Shown here: one piece after another, positions 2,705 to 13,831 of the stretch
Layout: every line of letters begins with the position of its first letter
How positions within the stretch are numbered: position 1 is the stretch's first letter
Virus genome (UHGV): UHGV-0120697
Length of the DNA: 28,017 nt
From: a virus
Reading direction: 5' to 3' (one strand)
The notes under the pieces: model-generated
The model's database searches: none
Told to the model about the DNA's origin: nothing
Seen by the model: only the letters and a program-made list of their open reading frames with translations
Translations under genes and position numbers: made by a program

Positions 2705-2841
2705 GAAAACCTCTTAACAATTTAATTAAACATAAGCCAGGACCTGAACCGGCCAGTCCAAGTCCTAGACACACAAAAAAAATACCACAAATCAATACAA
2801 GGTGACACGAGTACACCTTACCGAAGGTACAGAGTTTTAAT

Positions 2842-3501: not shown

Positions 3502-3744
3502 ATGGGCAAAGAATATAAAACTCTCATTAACAAAGCACTTGAGCGTTTTTATTTTCGCTTAAGTGCATCAGGCGTTCATGCTGAACGTGCAGCCCGTGAC
3601 TCATTGACCAGGGCAATCCGGAGTCTGTATGACGTGGCTTTTTACGCTGATGATCTGGATGCACTTAACGAACTTTCCGAGCTGATCTGTGCCGCAGAAT
3701 GCGGGGAACATATTGAACCGTATAAGCTGGGGAATATTGCATGA
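3502..3744 (+). CDS. Hypothetical early protein
   Basis: ATG at 3502 after a GTG at 3499; tightly packed with neighbours. Confidence 0.5.
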   Translation: MGKEYKTLINKALERFYFRLSASGVHAERAARDSLTRAIRSLYDVAFYADDLDALNELSELICAAECGEHIEPYKLGNIA

Positions 3745-6081: not shown

Positions 6082-6198
6082 AGTATGCCGTTCTCACAAA
6101 AAAACCGCTTGCCATGCCGCAATCAGTCAGGTTACATTTCCGCTGCACCTCATAAAACGGGTGCCGGGATTGGAACCCCGCTGACTATGCACGCGCAC

Positions 6199-6220
6199 AA
6201 CCGCGCCAGCGGTTTTTTTG
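6199..6220 (+). terminator. Intrinsic terminator-like hairpin AACCGC-GCCA-GCGGTT followed by T7
   Basis: Stem-loop plus U-tract read directly, inside a roughly 340-bp region with no convincing ORF. Confidence 0.4.
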
Positions 6221-6274
6221 TGCGTACCGTATCGCCACGTCTTTTTCGCGTCAGAATTATGGTGGGGCGTATGG

Positions 6275-6371
6275 GGCCGACTTCGGTCGGGCCGGATTCG
6301 TGCGTAGCCGGTAGTTCCAACCCTGTACGTCTCACCACCCCGAGCTTGGAACCTCTGGATGGTGAGTTTTT
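6275..6371 (+). ncRNA. Candidate structured RNA: UUCG-tetraloop hairpin (6275-6293), helix GTTCCAA/TTGGAAC (6314-6320 with 6346-6352) crossing helix CTCACCA/TGGTGAG (6331-6337 with 6360-6366), then T5
   Basis: Complementarities read directly. ORFs on both strands here translate to low-complexity, non-protein-like sequence. Function unknown. Confidence 0.3.
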
Positions 6372-9972: not shown

Positions 9973-10932
9973 ATGAAAATTTGTATCGATGACGGCTCCA
10001 CCAACATCAAGCTGGCATGGACTGAGAACGGCGAACGCCGCAACGCCATCAGCCCGAACAGCTTCAAGTCGGAATGGTCTGCGCCGTTCGGTGGCACGCA
10101 GCCCGCGAACTACATGCTTGATGGCGTGCGCTATGGTTTTGATCCGGTCAGCGATCGCTTTGTCCAGACGACTGACACGCAATACCAGTACAGCGATGTG
10201 AATGTCATTGCCATTCATCACGCGCTGGTCAAATCAGGCATCACGCCACAGGAGGTGGATGTGGTTGTCACCCTGCCACTGAGCGAGTATTTCGACACAA
10301 ACGCACAGCCGGACATAGCCAACATCAACCGCAAAAAAGCGAACGTTATGCGCCCGGTGGAGTACCAGAACGGCGAAGCATTCACTATCCGTAACGTACG
10401 GGTTATGCCTGAATCCATTCCGGCTGGCTTTAAGGCACTGGCTGACATGAGTCCGTTTGAATCCCTGCTGATTGTGGATTTAGGCGGAACCACGCTGGAT
10501 GTGGCAAAGGTTCAGGGACAACTGGCAGGTATCAGCCAGGTGTTTTGCGATCCACACGTAGGCGTTTCCCTGATGGCCGATGCCGTACTGTCGGTGATGG
10601 CCACTAACGGTATGCGTACCAGTCACCACATCGCCAATACCATTATCGAACATCGCCATGATGAAGCCTGGCTGCGCCAGCACATCCACAATGACGCGCA
10701 TTACGCCAGCCTGATGGCGGTTATTCGTGAAAAGGAAGAAACACTGAAACAACGCGTGATCCGCGCGCTGGCGGGTTTTTCGGGTTACGGGCGGGTGATG
10801 GTTGTCGGTGGCGGGGCAGAGATTGTGGCACCCGCTATCCGCGAAGCCTGCGGAGTTAATGCGACTTTCATCGCGGACGGGGTGCCACAGTTTGCTCTGG
10901 TTAATGGGCTGTACGCAATGGGCAAGGAGTAA
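9973..10932 (+). CDS. parM: Actin-like segregation ATPase, ParM/StbA family
   Basis: Actin-fold motifs: phosphate-1 (IDDGSTNIKLAW), phosphate-2 (VDLGGTTLD), adenosine (VVGGGAEIVAP). N-terminus closely resembles plasmid R1 ParM as recalled from memory (not searched). Confidence 0.7.
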   Translation: MKICIDDGSTNIKLAWTENGERRNAISPNSFKSEWSAPFGGTQPANYMLDGVRYGFDPVSDRFVQTTDTQYQYSDVNVIAIHHALVKSGITPQEVDVVVTLPLSEYFDTNAQPDIANINRKKANVMRPVEYQNGEAFTIRNVRVMPESIPAGFKALADMSPFESLLIVDLGGTTLDVAKVQGQLAGISQVFCDPHVGVSLMADAVLSVMATNGMRTSHHIANTIIEHRHDEAWLRQHIHNDAHYASLMAVIREKEETLKQRVIRALAGFSGYGRVMVVGGGAEIVAPAIREACGVNATFIADGVPQFALVNGLYAMGKE

Positions 10933-10936
10933 ACCA

Positions 10937-11248
10937 ATGACGACACCAACCAGACGGATAAGTTTCTATCTGAAGCCCGCCGCCGTCAAGAACGAAGGCG
11001 AAGCATGCGCCTGGCTGGACAGCCTTACACCAGAAGCCCGCAAAAGTGGTCAACGCGTGGCTTTTCTGGCCGGGCTGGCACTACTGAAAATGAATCCGGC
11101 AGAGGCTTACCGACTGGCTGCATGGGCTGATGATGAGGCGTTATCAATGACACAAACCAGGACAGAACGCCCCGCGTCACAGCCAGTATCAGCCGCACAG
11201 ATAACCAGTCAGATGGCCGGAAATATCCGGGCGTTATTTCCCGAATAA
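10937..11248 (+). CDS. parR: ParR-like small DNA-binding adaptor (ribbon-helix-helix type)
   Basis: Directly downstream of the ParM-like gene with an AAGGAG RBS; N-terminal RRISFYLKP...LDSLTPEAR...AFLAGLALLKMNP and C-terminal NIRALFPE resemble R1 ParR as recalled from memory. Confidence 0.55.
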   Translation: MTTPTRRISFYLKPAAVKNEGEACAWLDSLTPEARKSGQRVAFLAGLALLKMNPAEAYRLAAWADDEALSMTQTRTERPASQPVSAAQITSQMAGNIRALFPE

Positions 11249-11253
11249 CACAA

Positions 11254-11277
11254 CATCAGGGCGCATCCGCCCTGATG
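11254..11277 (+). other. Perfect 10-bp-stem hairpin (CATCAGGGCG-CATC-CGCCCTGATG) between the parR-like gene and the next operon
   Basis: Read directly; no U-tract, so a processing, stability or protein-binding role is as likely as termination. Confidence 0.45.
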
Positions 11278-11311
11278 ACTTTAACCCGGGAGCATAAACA
11301 AGGGGGACACA

Positions 11312-11644
11312 ATGCAACACATTGACAGAGAAAAAGCGCAGCGACTGATTGAGCGGATGGAAGCGCTGGCGAAAGAAGAAAATGTCAACATCCAAAAAAT
11401 AGCTGAATGTGGCCAGATAGTTCTTCGTCGTGAAAAAGACCTCAAACAACTGATGTCTGGCGAAACCAGCAAAACATGGACTTCAGGCGAGAAGACGGTT
11501 TATTGCAGCTTCTGCAATAAATCCCAGTACGAAGTCACAAAGGTGATTGCCGGACCGTCTGTTTACATCTGCAATGAGTGCGTGGATTTGTGCAATGAAA
11601 TTATCAGGAAAGAAGTGACAGACAAAAAGGAAAAAAACGCATGA
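11312..11644 (+). CDS. Small protein with a ClpX-type C4 zinc-binding domain (host ClpX N-domain mimic)
   Basis: C-terminal [38 protein letters not shown] has the C-x2-C-x18-C-x2-C spacing and is near-identical to the E. coli ClpX N-terminal zinc-binding domain as recalled from memory. No AAA+ module follows. Confidence 0.6.
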
Positions 11645-11955
11645 ACAGAAAACAGAAACAAGAGTTGAAATACTTCTTACGTAAAGAAATTGCCAGGCTT
11701 GAAGATGCAGAGTCACAATCATCAGAAATTCCGTTCGGAATGGATATCAACGACGCCCGTATGCTCCAGGCATACCGCATAGCTCAGGCTGCACTACAGG
11801 CAAAACCGTCAGATGGACTGGTTAGAGCAGTACATTTCTATGAACAGGTAAAGCGTGAGAATCCGCCAGTCGAAACCGGAGCATGGAAAGACGCTGTTGA
11901 CTGGGTGCTCAAAGAGGCTTGCCAGTCTGTAAACATTGGCATCAAAGGAGAGTGA
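11641..11955 (+). CDS. Hypothetical protein (operon gene 2)
   Basis: ATGA-coupled to the upstream gene; ends ...IGIKGE with the stop inside a 17-bp repeat. Confidence 0.5.
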
Positions 11956-11957
11956 GA

Positions 11958-12449
11958 ATGCAAATTTCACCGGTTACTCTTCGTGTTGCGAAGGCGTTTA
12001 TATCCAGACATCACCGACACAATAAACCCCCGGTGGGGCATAAATTCAGCATTGGTCTGAGAAATGATGCCGGAGAATTGATAGGTGTGGCGACAGCCGG
12101 TAGACCTGTTGCACGACATTTGGACGATGGATTAACGCTTGAAGTAAATCGCACATGTACCACAGGAGAACGCAACGCTAACAGCGCGCTTTATGGTGCT
12201 GTCTGGCGGGCAGCAAAGGCTATGGGTTATCAACGTTGTATTACGTACACCCAGGCAGATGAATCAGGAGCATCTCTCCGCGCAGCTGGTTTTGTTCGTG
12301 TGAAAGAGCTTCCTCCAAGAAAAAGCTGGGCGGAATCAAGCGTCGCCCTGCGGAGTAAACGCGATCCGGTCGGAAACGGTGGTGTTCCTCGTGTGCTCTG
12401 GGAAATCAGGAGAATGAGTACCACTGGCATTCGCATCAAAGGAGAGTGA
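11958..12449 (+). CDS. Hypothetical protein (operon gene 3), basic/His-rich N-terminus; possible acyltransferase-like fold
   Basis: ATG 2 nt after the upstream stop; ends ...GIRIKGE with the stop inside the second copy of the 17-bp repeat. Fold assignment is a weak impression only. Confidence 0.45.
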   Translation: MQISPVTLRVAKAFISRHHRHNKPPVGHKFSIGLRNDAGELIGVATAGRPVARHLDDGLTLEVNRTCTTGERNANSALYGAVWRAAKAMGYQRCITYTQADESGASLRAAGFVRVKELPPRKSWAESSVALRSKRDPVGNGGVPRVLWEIRRMSTTGIRIKGE

Positions 12450-12450
12450 T

Positions 12451-12714
12451 ATGGCAACTTTGACAAAAAAAGAACAAGCATGGTTGAGCGAATTACAGGA
12501 CGTTCTTGATCGCTGTCCATCACCGAAAAAAATTGGTTTTTACACCATTGGCGATAAAAGCATTTACCTGTATGACCTGCGCCGCATGGATGAAATCATG
12601 GAGGCTCTTGATAATCGTTCGTCAATGGATTGGTGTGTTGCTGTCCATGATATGAATGCAGGGTTTGATGAAAAGATTTTGTTCCCCTCATCAGTTGAAA
12701 GCACAGCAGGATAA
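12451..12714 (+). CDS. Hypothetical small protein (operon gene 4)
   Basis: ATG 1 nt after the upstream stop; followed by a strong terminator. Confidence 0.5.
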   Translation: MATLTKKEQAWLSELQDVLDRCPSPKKIGFYTIGDKSIYLYDLRRMDEIMEALDNRSSMDWCVAVHDMNAGFDEKILFPSSVESTAG

Positions 12715-12750
12715 GGACCCAGCAAATATACACAACCTATAAAACACTAA

Positions 12751-12774
12751 AGCGCCTCAGGGGCGCTTTTTGTT
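12751..12774 (+). terminator. Rho-independent terminator (AGCGCC-TCAGG-GGCGCT + TTTTTGTT)
   Basis: GC-rich stem-loop with a U-tract 36 nt after the last operon stop. Confidence 0.65.
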
Positions 12775-12801
12775 TGCACAAAAGTGCACAAATTTGCACA
12801 A
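12775..12801. repeat. Three direct TGCACAA repeats at exact 10-bp phasing (12775, 12785, 12795)
   Basis: Read directly; helical-repeat spacing suggests a protein-binding array (iteron- or centromere-like, or a packaging-protein site). Confidence 0.55.
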
Positions 12802-13172
12802 TTTTTTTGAACGACTTTTTACCCTTCCGGCCCGCATGGCGGCTGGATCCGTCAAGGATCCGTGCGTGCACAAAAAAACGCGCTTTTTCTGCGCGCAGGT
12901 GACGGGGGAACAGCCCGCGTTTCAGGGGGTAAATAGCATTCCCTGAACGATGTCGCAGAGACACAACAGAATGGCCATATTTCTCACGCTGAGCATGAAA
13001 AAGGCGTGAGGGCTTTTGATTTGATGGGGTGAAAGGTAAGGCCGTCAAAATCGCACTGAGGCAGCGAGAACATACAGTCAACGCGGTGGAATTGCGTAAG
13101 AGTCTGACCGTCGATGGTGGCGATAAACTGGAAGGCGTCGTGAAATTATCTGATTGATACAGGAGCTGGAGA

Positions 13173-13201
13173 GCCGGGGCATAAATTTTTTATGCCCCGG
13201 C
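13173..13201. other. Near-perfect 29-bp palindrome GCCGGGGCATAAA-TTT-TTTATGCCCCGGC
   Basis: 13-bp perfect inverted arms read directly in the non-coding stretch between the accessory operon and the orphan gene; candidate protein-binding or cos-associated site. Confidence 0.4.
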
Positions 13202-13300
13202 GAAGCAGCAGACAAGCGAAGCGCGTCAGCGATACGGCACCTTGCCGACCATACTTCATAAGTGCAAAATACGAGCAAAGAAATCAATGGAGGCTGTCTT

Positions 13301-13825
13301 ATGGTCATTAATTACAAGCAGTTAAGAGAAAAACGGGAGCAGGTAAAGGAGAGCTTTCGCCGCAATGAAGATCTGACCCCGCTTGTACGCCTTGCCCAGG
13401 GCATTGTTGATGCTTATGAAATCTCGCTGGAGCTGCCATCACAGACCTGGACAGATAGCGACGGTAATCGCCAGCATTACGTTTCATGCGGACTGGAAGC
13501 AGCCGAAGGATTTCGCAGAATGCCTTTATCCCAGATCCCTGCCGCTACCCCCAAAGCACGGGGCAGCAATGATGAGCGAAAACTGACTTTTAGTATTGAA
13601 ACGGTGGTTGACGACACACCTGGCGAAGTCGCGTTCGTGCACACGCCTGTTTCGATCGCAATGTATAACGATGAAATACAGGTTCGCGTTAATAATAATA
13701 TCGTGCCACTTAAAGAAGGTAATTCACCCTACACCACCGTTTGTGAAGCCATTCAATATTACGTTCTCTCTGAAATTGATAATCTCAAGCCTGACGGCAC
13801 CCAGAAAATGGTTCAACTCTGGTAA
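13301..13825 (+). CDS. Hypothetical protein (orphan gene next to the portal gene)
   Basis: ATG at 13301 preceded by GGAGG (track start 13262 is a GTG); ends at a bidirectional terminator; no recognised domain. Confidence 0.5.
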   Translation: MVINYKQLREKREQVKESFRRNEDLTPLVRLAQGIVDAYEISLELPSQTWTDSDGNRQHYVSCGLEAAEGFRRMPLSQIPAATPKARGSNDERKLTFSIETVVDDTPGEVAFVHTPVSIAMYNDEIQVRVNNNIVPLKEGNSPYTTVCEAIQYYVLSEIDNLKPDGTQKMVQLW

Positions 13826-13831
13826 AAAGGA

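What the first reader, a model, noticed from the sequence alone, without database searches (positions are those of the whole stretch)
11934..12449. Accessory gene bracketed by 17-bp direct repeats that encode the same stop-RBS-start junction
GCATCAAAGGAGAGTGA occurs at 11939-11955 and 12433-12449 (22 bp with one mismatch if extended upstream). Each copy supplies the last codons (...IKGE), the stop and an AAGGAG RBS for the next gene, so genes 2 and 3 of the operon end with the same tail and the gene at 11958-12449 sits exactly between the repeats. This looks like a footprint of cassette insertion or duplication by recombination at a reusable junction, that is, a modular gene-swapping site.
Basis: seen in the sequence. 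Interest (0 to 1): 0.55.

Follow-up and report, generated by a model that had tools for sequence, protein, structure and literature searches.

The report
Reusable gene junction for phage cassette swapping
The two 17-bp repeats are copies of a short junction (last codons, ribosome-binding site, stop, start) found between hundreds of unrelated accessory genes in E. coli temperate phages, and relatives show genes inserted, deleted and replaced exactly at it.

Summary
Observation confirmed. GCATCAAAGGAGAGTGA occurs only at 11939-11955 and 12433-12449 (chance 0.02). Each copy gives the tail ...IKGE, an AAGGAG ribosome-binding site, TGA and the next start.

The window is a P88-like (P2-family) prophage. 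The repeats are not an insertion scar. They are two copies of a 24-36 nt junction that ends Ea22-like and other accessory genes in lambda, Stx, P22-like, P1-like and P2-like phages (376 phage records; scan of viral contigs capped at 120).

Across 135 copies it joins 14 unrelated upstream gene ends to 16 unrelated downstream gene starts, in 56 combinations. Likeness between loci stops within a few bases of it.

In P88-like prophages the 494-bp unit is present, exactly absent (L142, L144, L127) or replaced.

The window equals an L142-like backbone plus a patch 99.7% identical to a lambdoid Wanchaivirus. The left crossover lies at 11835-11876. The right one lies at 12433-12455 if the gene was gained.

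The cargo gene is a Mom-like, GNAT-fold XF1762 protein whose tail is grafted on.

The kind is known ("short conserved boundary sequences"). This junction also explains the unexplained "+GE" end of Ea22 proteins. Moderate interest.

The parts
11312..11644 (+). ClpX zinc-finger-only gene, first gene of the small operon. Context only. It joins gene 2 by an ATGA overlap, not by the junction.
   Evidence: Pfam zf-C4_ClpX 6.8e-18. The junction sequence is shown.
11641..11955 (+). Gene 2 (104 aa, no Pfam family). Its C-terminal module from about 11812 is shared with many lambdoid genes (class U2) and ends ...NIGIKGE.
11835..11876 (+). Left crossover interval of the patch. Here the window, the P88-like backbone L142 and the lambdoid donor-like L004 are all identical.
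   Evidence: Mismatch maps. The last L004 mismatch is at 11834 and the first L142 mismatch of the cluster is at 11877.
11934..11960 (+). Junction copy 1: tail codons (I-G-I-K-G-E), Shine-Dalgarno AAGGAG 11945-11950, TGA 11953-11955, spacer GA, ATG 11958-11960.
11958..12449 (+). Gene 3, the cargo: XF1762-family, Mom-like GNAT-fold protein (163 aa) with a grafted 11-residue tail MSTTGIRIKGE.
   Evidence: NCBIfam NF045478 5e-61 over residues 3-136. PHROG 1384 Mom-like 4e-42. The AF2 model's best PDB match is Mu Mom 8bv8. Homologues at about 85% identity end at ...RVLWEIRRGL.
12428..12453 (+). Junction copy 2: tail codons (I-R-I-K-G-E), AAGGAG 12439-12444, TGA 12447-12449, spacer T, ATG 12451-12453.
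12433..12455 (+). Block where likeness to the lambdoid L004 ends (at 12456) and alignment to the L142 backbone begins (from 12433). It is the right crossover interval if gene 3 was gained. It is in any case the joint at which the window and L004 lineages part.
12451..12714 (+). Gene 4 (87 aa, PHROG 1714, function unknown), the commonest downstream cassette (class D1).
12749..12775 (+). Terminator-like hairpin and T-rich tail that closes the operon.

Best explanation
The two repeats are copies of a portable gene junction shared by enterobacterial temperate phages. It is a block of about 24-36 nt, ...(CGCGCC)GCTGGCATT(C/G)GCATCAAAGGAGAGTGA(N1-2)ATG. The block holds the last 6-11 codons of the upstream gene (...AGIRIKGE or ...NIGIKGE), a consensus Shine-Dalgarno AAGGAG written inside the K-G-E codons, the TGA stop and, 1-2 nt later, the next start codon.

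It does two things. (1) Inferred from sequence: it gives whatever gene follows a strong ribosome-binding site tightly coupled to termination of the gene before. Any cassette can then be expressed in any order within one operon. (2) Shown by comparison; the enzymology is inferred: because the same block ends many unrelated genes, it is a patch of identity at which homologous recombination can insert, delete or replace whole genes in register. The block is about the size of the minimal pairing segment reported for Red-beta. RecA or phage Rad52-like annealing proteins would be the likely agents.

In this window a P88-like (P2-family) backbone of the form ClpX-ZnF | gene 2 | junction | gene 4 differs from its near-isogenic relatives by exactly one cassette. 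That cassette is a Mom-like XF1762 gene carried on a patch nearly identical to a lambdoid Wanchaivirus. The left crossover lies in the shared C-terminal module of gene 2 (11835-11876). The right one lies inside junction 2 (12433-12455) if the gene was gained.

Loss of the cassette in the sister lineage, through import of an L127/L061-type 'gene-2 tail, junction, gene 4' segment, is equally compatible with the data. The right crossover could then lie anywhere in gene 4.
For: The repeat is real and non-random.

Combinatorial joint. It is also in 376 phage records, including lambda, HK630, Stx phages, P7 and Salmonella phages. The 135 copies follow 14 unrelated upstream C-terminal classes and precede 16 unrelated downstream N-terminal classes, in 56 combinations.

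Breakpoints. Among 99 unique contexts, 4096 of 4851 pairs are alike on neither flank. Pairs alike on one flank lose likeness 0-7 nt after TGA in 355 of 367 cases (the rest by +17), or gain it 17-34 nt before the stop's end. Conservation rises at -34, is 100% from about -24 to -1, and falls after the ATG.

Not an artefact of selecting on the 17-mer. Of 67 Ea22-like genes fetched through their coiled-coil motif, 45 end in the exact 17-mer.

Locus polymorphism in P88-like prophages. Present, exactly absent and replaced alleles all occur. L142 equals the window minus exactly 494 bp.

Patch structure. Window against L142: 2 mismatches in 10900-11876, 8 in 11877-11932, 1 in 12433-12939. Window against lambdoid L004: unrelated before 11815, 2 mismatches in 11835-12455, unrelated after 12455.

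The tail belongs to the junction, not to the protein. Close XF1762 homologues lack it. The family profile stops at residue 136. The tail is low-confidence in the AF2 model, with pLDDT 46-65. It also ends proteins that do not resemble Ea22 by sequence, namely the Mom-like GNAT protein and classes U1, U12 and U14 (only the window's genes were scanned against family libraries).

Nucleotide-level constraint. The K-G-E codons are almost always AAA-GGA-GAG (47, 48 and 54 of 67). Amino-acid-changing variants that keep the Shine-Dalgarno occur (IKGD, IKGG, NKGE, TKGE).

Plausible enzymology. Minimal pairing segments of 23-27 bp for Red-beta and 31-34 bp for RecA are quoted in PMC3945230.
Against: No recombination experiment exists; crossover at the junction is inferred from sequence patterns.

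The direction of the event (gain of gene 3 against loss in L142-like phages) cannot be decided. Under the loss scenario the right crossover need not lie in the junction.

The main sample was selected by the exact 17-mer, so the minimal shared block is 17 nt by construction. The independent Ea22 sample consists of close relatives (at least 94% identity in the probe region).

The first attachment of the tail to a new gene such as XF1762 cannot itself have used homology on the gene side, so illegitimate events are also needed.

P88 itself shows an illegitimate deletion that ends inside the junction.

Some conservation of -34 to -18 could reflect an unknown function rather than recombination history.
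Confidence: 0.85

Rival explanations
1. Coincidental conservation of a translational-coupling signal. Unrelated genes independently evolved the same strong Shine-Dalgarno, stop and start arrangement, and recombination plays no role.
For: The most invariant bases are the Shine-Dalgarno, stop and start. The spacing of 6-7 nt is near optimal. Related junctions exist with other tails but the same core, such as GKGE, NKGE and AAGGAAAACTGATATG.
Against: Identity extends 24-36 nt, well beyond what an RBS needs. All copies use the same reading frame and the same codons. Flank likeness ends precisely at the block. Near-isogenic prophages differ by an exact 494-bp unit, with a donor-like patch 99.7% identical to a lambdoid phage. 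Hybrid tails exist: AACATTCGCATC in L049 and GGCATTGGCATC in L072.
Confidence: 0.04
2. The repeat is kept because the encoded peptide ...AGIRIKGE (the '+GE' end) is a functional C-terminal tag, such as an interaction, localisation or stability signal, shared by proteins of these arrays.
For: Dydecka et al. 2020 (PMC7093339) noted that all Ea22 proteins studied end in K/R-G-E, with unknown significance. XF1762 homologues of other genera carry loosely similar tails, AAGIKVEVK and AAGIQVIEGEDGE.
Against: The tail sits on unrelated folds. It is absent from homologues at about 85% identity. It is predicted to be unstructured. Radical substitutions occur: G to D, V or S; R to C or G; E to D or G; I to N or T. 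The stop can be lost with read-through (L126, P0032). Codon choice is fixed at GGA and GAG. I know these to be minority E. coli codons for Gly and Glu, which points to the RNA or DNA level.
Confidence: 0.07
3. The unit is a mobile cassette inserted by a site-specific or transpositional mechanism (integron-like attC, or a target-site duplication), and the repeats are the recombination site or the duplicated target.
For: Empty sites carry one copy and the filled site two copies at an exact spacing. Formally this resembles a target-site duplication.
Against: There are no inverted repeats and no significant hairpin at the ends (z -0.5 and -1.2). No recombinase or transposase lies in the unit or the operon. 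The same sequence bounds dozens of unrelated cassettes. The insertion comes with a tract of donor SNPs to its left (11877-11932), as expected of homologous exchange and not of transposition. No Rfam family matches there.
Confidence: 0.03

Closest known systems
Short conserved boundary ('linker') sequences between modules of lambdoid phages (Susskind & Botstein 1978; Clark et al. 2001 on HK620; cited in PMC3029335 and PMC2327257)
   Same: A short sequence is conserved between otherwise unrelated flanks. It lies at gene boundaries and coincides with mosaic breakpoints, and it is proposed to act through general homologous recombination. HK620 itself carries the exact 17-mer at the hkaG/hkaF boundary.
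   Different: I could not read Clark et al., so I do not know whether this junction is among theirs. Here the block lies inside the coding tail and doubles as the RBS, stop and start. It is documented in 56 flank combinations and across lambdoid, P22-like, P1-like and P2-like phages. Reviews say such sequences are not found at most mosaic boundaries (PMC3029335).
Mosaic Ea22 / Ead-like proteins of the lambda exo-xis region and their '+GE' C-terminal tripeptide (PMC7093339, PMC10834534, PMC8614690)
   Same: Lambda Ea22 and its Stx-phage relatives share an N-terminal coiled coil, have unrelated C-terminal domains, and end in K/R-G-E. [quoted passage not shown]
   Different: Those papers treat +GE as a protein motif of unknown significance. 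Here it reads as the in-frame shadow of AAGGAG plus a recombination joint. Genes 2 and 3 of the window have no Ead_Ea22 domain and share only the tail.
Mosaicism driven by relaxed homologous recombination through Rad52-like recombinases (Martinsohn 2008, PMC2327257; De Paepe 2014, PMC3945230)
   Same: Exchange occurs at short or diverged homology. The minimal pairing segment quoted for Red-beta, 23-27 bp, matches the size of the block. The arrays lie next to recT or red genes, as in Kapi1.
   Different: De Paepe et al. detected recent mosaics only within the lambda-like group or within the P1-P2-Mu group. Here a 621-nt stretch is 99.7% identical between a P2-like prophage and a lambdoid phage.
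Integron gene cassettes (attC x attI)
   Same: Functionally analogous: promoterless single-gene cassettes are inserted in register into an expressed array, each carrying the same short site at its end.
   Different: There is no attC-like hairpin and no IntI integrase. Exchange appears to depend on homology.
Morons (Juhala et al. 2000; Hendrix; from my own knowledge)
   Same: An accessory gene lies between two genes that are adjacent in related phages.
   Different: A moron brings its own promoter and terminator. Gene 3 has neither and relies on the operon and on the junction's RBS.

Membership tests
Short conserved boundary sequences of phage modules (Susskind-Botstein / Clark) | A short sequence conserved between loci whose flanks are otherwise unrelated | tested here: met
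   4096 of 4851 pairs of junction contexts are alike on neither flank yet share 17-36 nt. There are 14 x 16 flank classes in 56 combinations.
Short conserved boundary sequences of phage modules (Susskind-Botstein / Clark) | Lies at a gene or module boundary | tested here: met
   The block spans the last codons, the stop and the next start.
Short conserved boundary sequences of phage modules (Susskind-Botstein / Clark) | Mosaic breakpoints coincide with it | tested here: met
   Likeness ends 0-7 nt after TGA in 355 of 367 pairs, or starts 17-34 nt before the stop's end. P88-like alleles break at 11951-11970 and at 12428-12447. The patch is mapped.
Short conserved boundary sequences of phage modules (Susskind-Botstein / Clark) | Recombination actually takes place at the sequence | not testable with these tools
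   This needs crosses. Only the sequence footprint is available.
Translationally coupled gene junction | Shine-Dalgarno 5-9 nt upstream of the downstream start, inside the upstream gene's 3' end | tested here: met
   AAGGAG at 11945-11950 and 12439-12444, 7 and 6 nt before the ATGs.
Translationally coupled gene junction | Stop and start within a few nucleotides | tested here: met
   TGA-GA-ATG and TGA-T-ATG. In most copies the start lies 1 nt after the stop; in some it lies 2 nt after.
Translationally coupled gene junction | Downstream translation depends on upstream translation or on this RBS | not testable with these tools
   This needs reporter assays. No conserved sequestering hairpin is predicted.
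Integron cassette / attC site | Imperfect inverted repeat that forms a hairpin at the cassette end | tested here: not met
   No inverted repeats at the repeats. RNA folds are not better than shuffles.
Integron cassette / attC site | Adjacent IntI-type integrase | tested here: not met
   The operon genes are ParM, StbB, a ClpX zinc finger, an unknown, XF1762 and an unknown. The rest of the window was not searched for integrases.
Transposon with target-site duplication | Element with terminal inverted repeats and a transposase, flanked by a newly duplicated target | tested here: not met
   The unit encodes only a GNAT-fold protein. It has no terminal inverted repeats. The 'target' bounds many unrelated genes. 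A donor SNP tract lies outside the unit.
Moron | Own promoter and terminator | tested here: not met
   No promoter-like or convincing terminator-like site brackets 11958-12449. The only strong terminator follows gene 4, at 12749-12769.
Ead/Ea22-like protein family (Pfam Ead_Ea22; the InterPro signature is given as IPR025153 in PMC10834534) | N-terminal or central coiled-coil Ead_Ea22 domain | tested here: not met
   Genes 2 and 3 have no Ead_Ea22 hit in Pfam. They share only the C-terminal tail with Ea22 proteins.
XF1762 / Mom-like family (gene 3) | Match to the family profile above its curated cut-off | tested here: met
   NF045478, 204.7 bits against a cut-off of 50. PHROG 1384 at 4e-42. The Pfam Mom hit is below its cut-off, 22.4 against 27.1.
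XF1762 / Mom-like family (gene 3) | GNAT-like fold resembling Mu Mom | tested here: met
   AF2 pLDDT 85.6. The best PDB match is 8bv8 Mu Mom, E 9e-8, TM 0.69, followed by GNAT acetyltransferases.
XF1762 / Mom-like family (gene 3) | DNA-modifying activity | not testable with these tools

The most novel reading that the evidence does not exclude
The junction is not merely an RBS inherited by descent. It is a selected, portable linker, a homology-based counterpart of the integron attC site. It would be maintained because it lets accessory genes (anti-restriction, defence and similar) be shuffled in register among otherwise non-recombining phage families: lambda-like, P22-like, P1-like and P2-like. 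The bases from -34 to -18, which no RBS needs, would be kept to reach the pairing length that Red-beta or RecT requires.
Probability: 0.15. Interest if true: 0.7.

Novelty: new member of a known kind. Interest (0 to 1): 0.45.

Why it matters
There are two long-standing explanations of phage mosaicism. One is homologous exchange at conserved linkers (Susskind and Botstein). The other is random illegitimate joining followed by selection (Hendrix). Linkers are said to be undetectable at most boundaries (PMC3029335).

This junction is an unusually clean and abundant linker, with dozens of flank combinations. It has a near-isogenic present/absent pair and a reconstructable donor patch. It is short enough to test directly in crosses.

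It also gives a simple explanation for the "+GE" end of Ea22 proteins, whose significance was reported as unknown (PMC7093339). The tripeptide reads as the in-frame shadow of a ribosome-binding site.

It shows that a P2-like prophage draws cargo from the lambdoid exo-xis gene pool. In relatives the same prophage slot holds the IetAS defence system. This is a cross-group exchange of a kind not seen in an earlier survey (PMC3945230).

In practice, annotators and people hunting defence or anti-defence genes could use the junction as a marker for cassette arrays.

Tried and rejected
1. Genus-specific junction variants. XF1762 homologues from Klebsiella and Salmonella have tails such as AAGIKVEVK and AAGIQVIEGEDGE. 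Their contigs (L130-L136) show overlapping start/stop junctions or uncoupled genes in a different region, so they say nothing about this junction. The resemblance of the tails stays unexplained.

2. RNA element. There is no Rfam family at the junction, and folds of 80 nt around each copy are no better than shuffles.

3. Inverted repeats or an attC-like site: none.

4. Defence annotation of the window's operon genes in PADLOC: nothing.

5. A PDB relative of gene 3 by sequence: none. The fold search was needed.

6. Literature. 'IRIKGE' occurs in no searchable paper. Clark et al. 2001 is not held, so I could not check whether this junction is one of their boundary sequences. PMC9836094 says nothing relevant.

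7. Simple deletion by microhomology as the origin of the P88 allele: rejected. P88's gene 2 is fused to the last 8 codons of the last cassette gene of an L126-type array, with no evident homology at the right end.

8. Direction of the gain-or-loss event: not resolvable from the data in hand.
Full report
**1. The observation**

The 17-mer GCATCAAAGGAGAGTGA is present at 11939-11955 and 12433-12449 and nowhere else in the window, even with two mismatches. Shuffled sequence gives 0.02 matches on average. The 12-nt core behaves the same way.

Extended upstream, the two copies read CATTGGCATC... and CATTCGCATC..., which is 22 nt with one mismatch. The repeat finder reports 37 nt at 84% identity with a spacing of 494.

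The gene at 11641-11955 ends NIGIKGE-TGA and the gene at 11958-12449 ends GIRIKGE-TGA. AAGGAG sits 7 nt before the ATG at 11958 and 6 nt before the ATG at 12451. The description is correct in every detail.

**2. Setting**

The window is a P88-like prophage (Peduoviridae, Xuanwuvirus). Over the stretch compared (11250-12800) it is identical to phage PhiR44_2. Downstream of the replication gene lie:

- ParM and StbB partition genes
- a ClpX zinc-finger-only gene (11312-11644)
- gene 2 (11641-11955)
- gene 3 (11958-12449)
- gene 4 (12451-12714)
- a terminator-like hairpin at 12749-12769
- the portal gene on the other strand

Gene 3 is an XF1762-family protein (NCBIfam 5e-61; PHROG "Mom-like DNA modification protein" 4e-42). 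Its AlphaFold model has mean pLDDT 85.6 and is a GNAT fold. Its best solved match is phage Mu Mom (8bv8, E 9e-8, TM 0.69). Genes 2 and 4 have no named family.

**3. The repeat is a widespread junction, not a local scar**

A first comparison with phage genomes showed pieces of this region in lambdoid, P22-like and P1-like phages. The ends of those pieces fall at the two repeats: query positions about 702-708 and 1172-1206, which correspond to window 11951-11957 and 12421-12455.

A 39-nt version of the junction is in 376 of 50,697 phage records. These include lambda, HK630, many Stx phages, Salmonella phages and P7.

I extracted the gene that ends in each copy and the gene that starts after it:

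- The 135 copies follow 14 classes of upstream C-terminal sequence that are unrelated to each other just before the tail.
- They precede 16 unrelated classes of downstream gene.
- These occur in 56 different combinations.

Most upstream genes are Ead/Ea22-like proteins, with a shared coiled coil and unrelated C-terminal domains. Class U10 is the C-terminal domain of lambda Ea22 itself. The same tail also ends proteins that do not look like Ea22: the Mom-like protein, and three others (classes U1, U12, U14) that by eye include a membrane-like and an HNH-like protein. Those three were not scanned against family libraries.

**4. Breakpoints**

There are 99 distinct 270-nt contexts, giving 4851 pairs:

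- 4096 pairs are alike on neither flank and share only the junction. The shared block runs from 17-36 nt before the end of the stop to, in most pairs, 0-6 nt after it.
- Pairs alike only upstream lose likeness 0-7 nt after TGA in 355 of 367 cases, and the rest by +17.
- Pairs alike only downstream gain likeness 17-34 nt before the end of the stop.

With one sequence per class, conservation rises from position -34 (CGCGCCGCTGGCATTCGC...), is complete from about -24 to -1, and falls after the ATG.

The minimal 17 nt is imposed by my selection, but the unrelated flanks are not. As an independent sample I fetched Ea22-like genes through their coiled-coil motif. Of 67 such genes, 45 end in the exact 17-mer and several more in one-base variants.

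**5.

I fetched 80 P88-like loci through StbB. The slot between StbB and the portal gene varies from 1002 to 4188 bp. In some relatives it holds the IetA/IetS defence pair (L165).

At junction 1 the alleles are:

- Gene 3 present: the window, PhiR44_2, L146, and 33 complete E. coli genomes with at least 80% coverage.
- Gene 3 exactly absent: L142 and L144. Window 10900-11970 and 12428-13229 both align to L142, with one junction copy shared and offsets that differ by 494. The O104:H4 prophage L127 has the same direct join.
- Gene 3 replaced by a 95-aa cassette (L147, L152, L155), by an Ea22-like gene (L137), or by a string of other cassettes (L126 type).
- A P88-type fusion (six loci).

The lambdoid phage 689R5 has an Ea22 gene behind the same gene-2 tail and in front of a gene-4 homologue. 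Its two junctions are diverged variants, GTACCAAAGGAGATTGA and GGGAAAGGAGAGTGA. "Present, absent or replaced" are thus all observed, and the refuting pattern is not.

**6. Reconstruction of the event**

Against L142 the window has 2 mismatches in 10900-11876, 8 in 11877-11932, and only 1 in 12433-12939.

Against the lambdoid Wanchaivirus PDP110P2 (L004) the window is unrelated before 11815. It has 2 mismatches in 11835-12455 (99.7% over 621 nt) and is unrelated again from 12456.

The window is therefore an L142-like backbone carrying a patch of lambdoid type. The left crossover lies in the shared C-terminal module of gene 2 (11835-11876). If gene 3 was gained, the right crossover lies within the 23 nt of junction 2 (12433-12455).

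The reverse history is equally possible. L142-like phages may have lost gene 3 by importing an L127/L061-type "gene-2 tail, junction, gene 4" segment. The right crossover could then lie anywhere in gene 4. In either case, the divergence of the window from L004 exactly at 12456 records a past exchange at the junction.

**7. Does the tail belong to the protein or to the junction?**

- XF1762 homologues at about 85% identity from Edwardsiella, Klebsiella and Enterobacter end at ...RVLWEIRRGL. Only members that match the window at 79-99% identity, all those named being from E. coli, carry ...MSTTGIRIKGE.
- The family profile stops aligning at residue 136.
- The last 12 residues have low model confidence.
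- Variants of the junction change amino acids while keeping AAGGAG: IKGD, IKGG, NKGE, TKGE, ADIRIKGE, and G to V or S, R to C or G.
- The K-G-E codons are almost always AAA-GGA-GAG. I know GGA and GAG to be minority codons for Gly and Glu in E. coli.
- The stop can be lost with read-through (L126, P0032).

These points favour constraint at the nucleic-acid level. The core is needed as RBS, stop and start. The rest is shared through recombination and descent.

Dydecka et al. noted that all Ea22 proteins end in K/R-G-E "of unknown significance" (PMC7093339). On the present reading that tripeptide is the in-frame translation of the next gene's Shine-Dalgarno.

**8. Mechanism**

Shown:

- the anatomy of the junction
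- its combinatorial distribution
- the coincidence of breakpoints with it
- the exact indel and the donor-like patch

Inferred:

- The block works as a coupled RBS.
- Exchange is by homologous recombination.

The block of 24-36 nt matches the minimal efficient pairing segment quoted for Red-beta (23-27 bp) and is borderline for RecA (31-34 bp) (PMC3945230). The arrays lie next to recT or red genes in lambdoid phages, for example Kapi1. The first grafting of the tail onto a new gene must have been illegitimate.

**9. Rivals**

- Pure convergence on an RBS fails to explain 24-36 nt of identity, the hybrid tails and the patch.
- A functional peptide tag is unlikely for the reasons given in section 7, but it is not excluded.
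- A site-specific or transpositional cassette is contradicted by four results. There are no inverted repeats or hairpins. There is no recombinase in the operon. The donor SNP tract lies outside the unit. There is no Rfam match.
- Gene 3 is not a classical moron because it has no promoter or terminator of its own.

**10. Comparison with what is known, and novelty**

The kind is known. Short conserved boundary sequences as sites of homologous exchange were proposed by Susskind and Botstein and by Clark et al. for HK620, as cited in PMC3029335 and PMC2327257. HK620 carries the exact 17-mer at the hkaG/hkaF boundary, so it may already have been seen there. I could not read that paper. The mosaic nature of ea22 is also known (PMC10834534, PMC8614690).

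What appears not to be in the searchable literature:

- this junction as a combinatorial joint
- its reach into P1-like and P2-like phages
- the RBS explanation of +GE
- the reconstructed cassette event

De Paepe et al. reported recent mosaics only within the lambda-like group or within the P1-P2-Mu group. The 99.7% identical patch between a P2-like and a lambdoid phage is an exception to that.

I rate it a new member of a known kind, of moderate interest (0.45). It offers a clean, testable model for linker-mediated phage mosaicism rather than a new principle.

Noticed in passing
window 6145-6342: Rfam matches above gathering score to isrK Hfq-binding RNA (6145-6219) and C4 antisense RNA (6255-6342), next to each other on the + strand. 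C4 is the P1/P7-type immunity RNA, seen here in a P2-like prophage.
   Followed up: no
window 9973-11248: A plasmid-type partition pair, ParM (StbA_N and ParM_N domains) and a Plasmid_stab_B protein, lies between the replication gene and the accessory operon of an integrated P2-like prophage.
   Followed up: no
window 11312-11644; L010 and L073: A 110-aa protein consists of little more than a ClpX C4 zinc finger. A homologue (class D10, 107 aa) lies directly after the same junction in lambdoid arrays, so this gene too belongs to the shared cassette pool. Its function is unknown; it could be a ClpX N-domain mimic.
   Followed up: partly
L165 5691-8974, the slot equivalent to window 11250-13830: In other P88-like prophages the slot between StbB and the portal gene holds IetA and IetS defence genes (PADLOC 4e-89 and 7e-41). 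Slot length ranges from 1.0 to 4.2 kb among 80 loci, so this is a cargo hotspot.
   Followed up: partly
L002 (P88) 3690-3730; L126 3070-3096: Gene 2 of phage P88 is fused, just after AAAGGAGA of the junction, to the last 8 codons of the last cassette gene of an L126-type array. This is a deletion with no evident homology at its right end.
   Followed up: partly
L126 2130-2165 (also L138, L139, L143, L148): A diverged junction 1 (ATTGGTATCAAGGGAGGGGGATATGGCAAC) has lost its stop codon. Gene 2 therefore reads 19 nt into the next gene, whose ATG is kept.
   Followed up: no
P0006, P0021, P0033, P0034; L130-L136: XF1762 homologues of Enterobacter, Klebsiella and Salmonella end in AAGIKVEVK, AAGIQVIEGEDGE or TTAGIKLQIEGE. 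These tails resemble AGIRIKGE, although their gene junctions are of another type. This is unexplained. In the Klebsiella locus the gene lies next to KwaA/KwaB defence genes.
   Followed up: partly
L297 (HK620) 2794-2810, minus strand: The exact 17-mer ends hkaG and precedes hkaF in HK620, the genome in which 'boundary sequences' were first proposed.
   Followed up: partly
window 11835-12455 against L004 (Wanchaivirus PDP110P2): There are only 2 mismatches in 621 nt between a P2-like prophage and a lambdoid (Hendrixvirinae) phage. This is a recent exchange across groups that an earlier survey (PMC3945230) found not to exchange.
   Followed up: yes
window 13301-13825: A 174-aa ORF with no Pfam or PADLOC match lies between the terminator and the portal gene. 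It is present in only some P88-like prophages (for example L148, L190, L199, L214), so it is a second variable cargo position.
   Followed up: no
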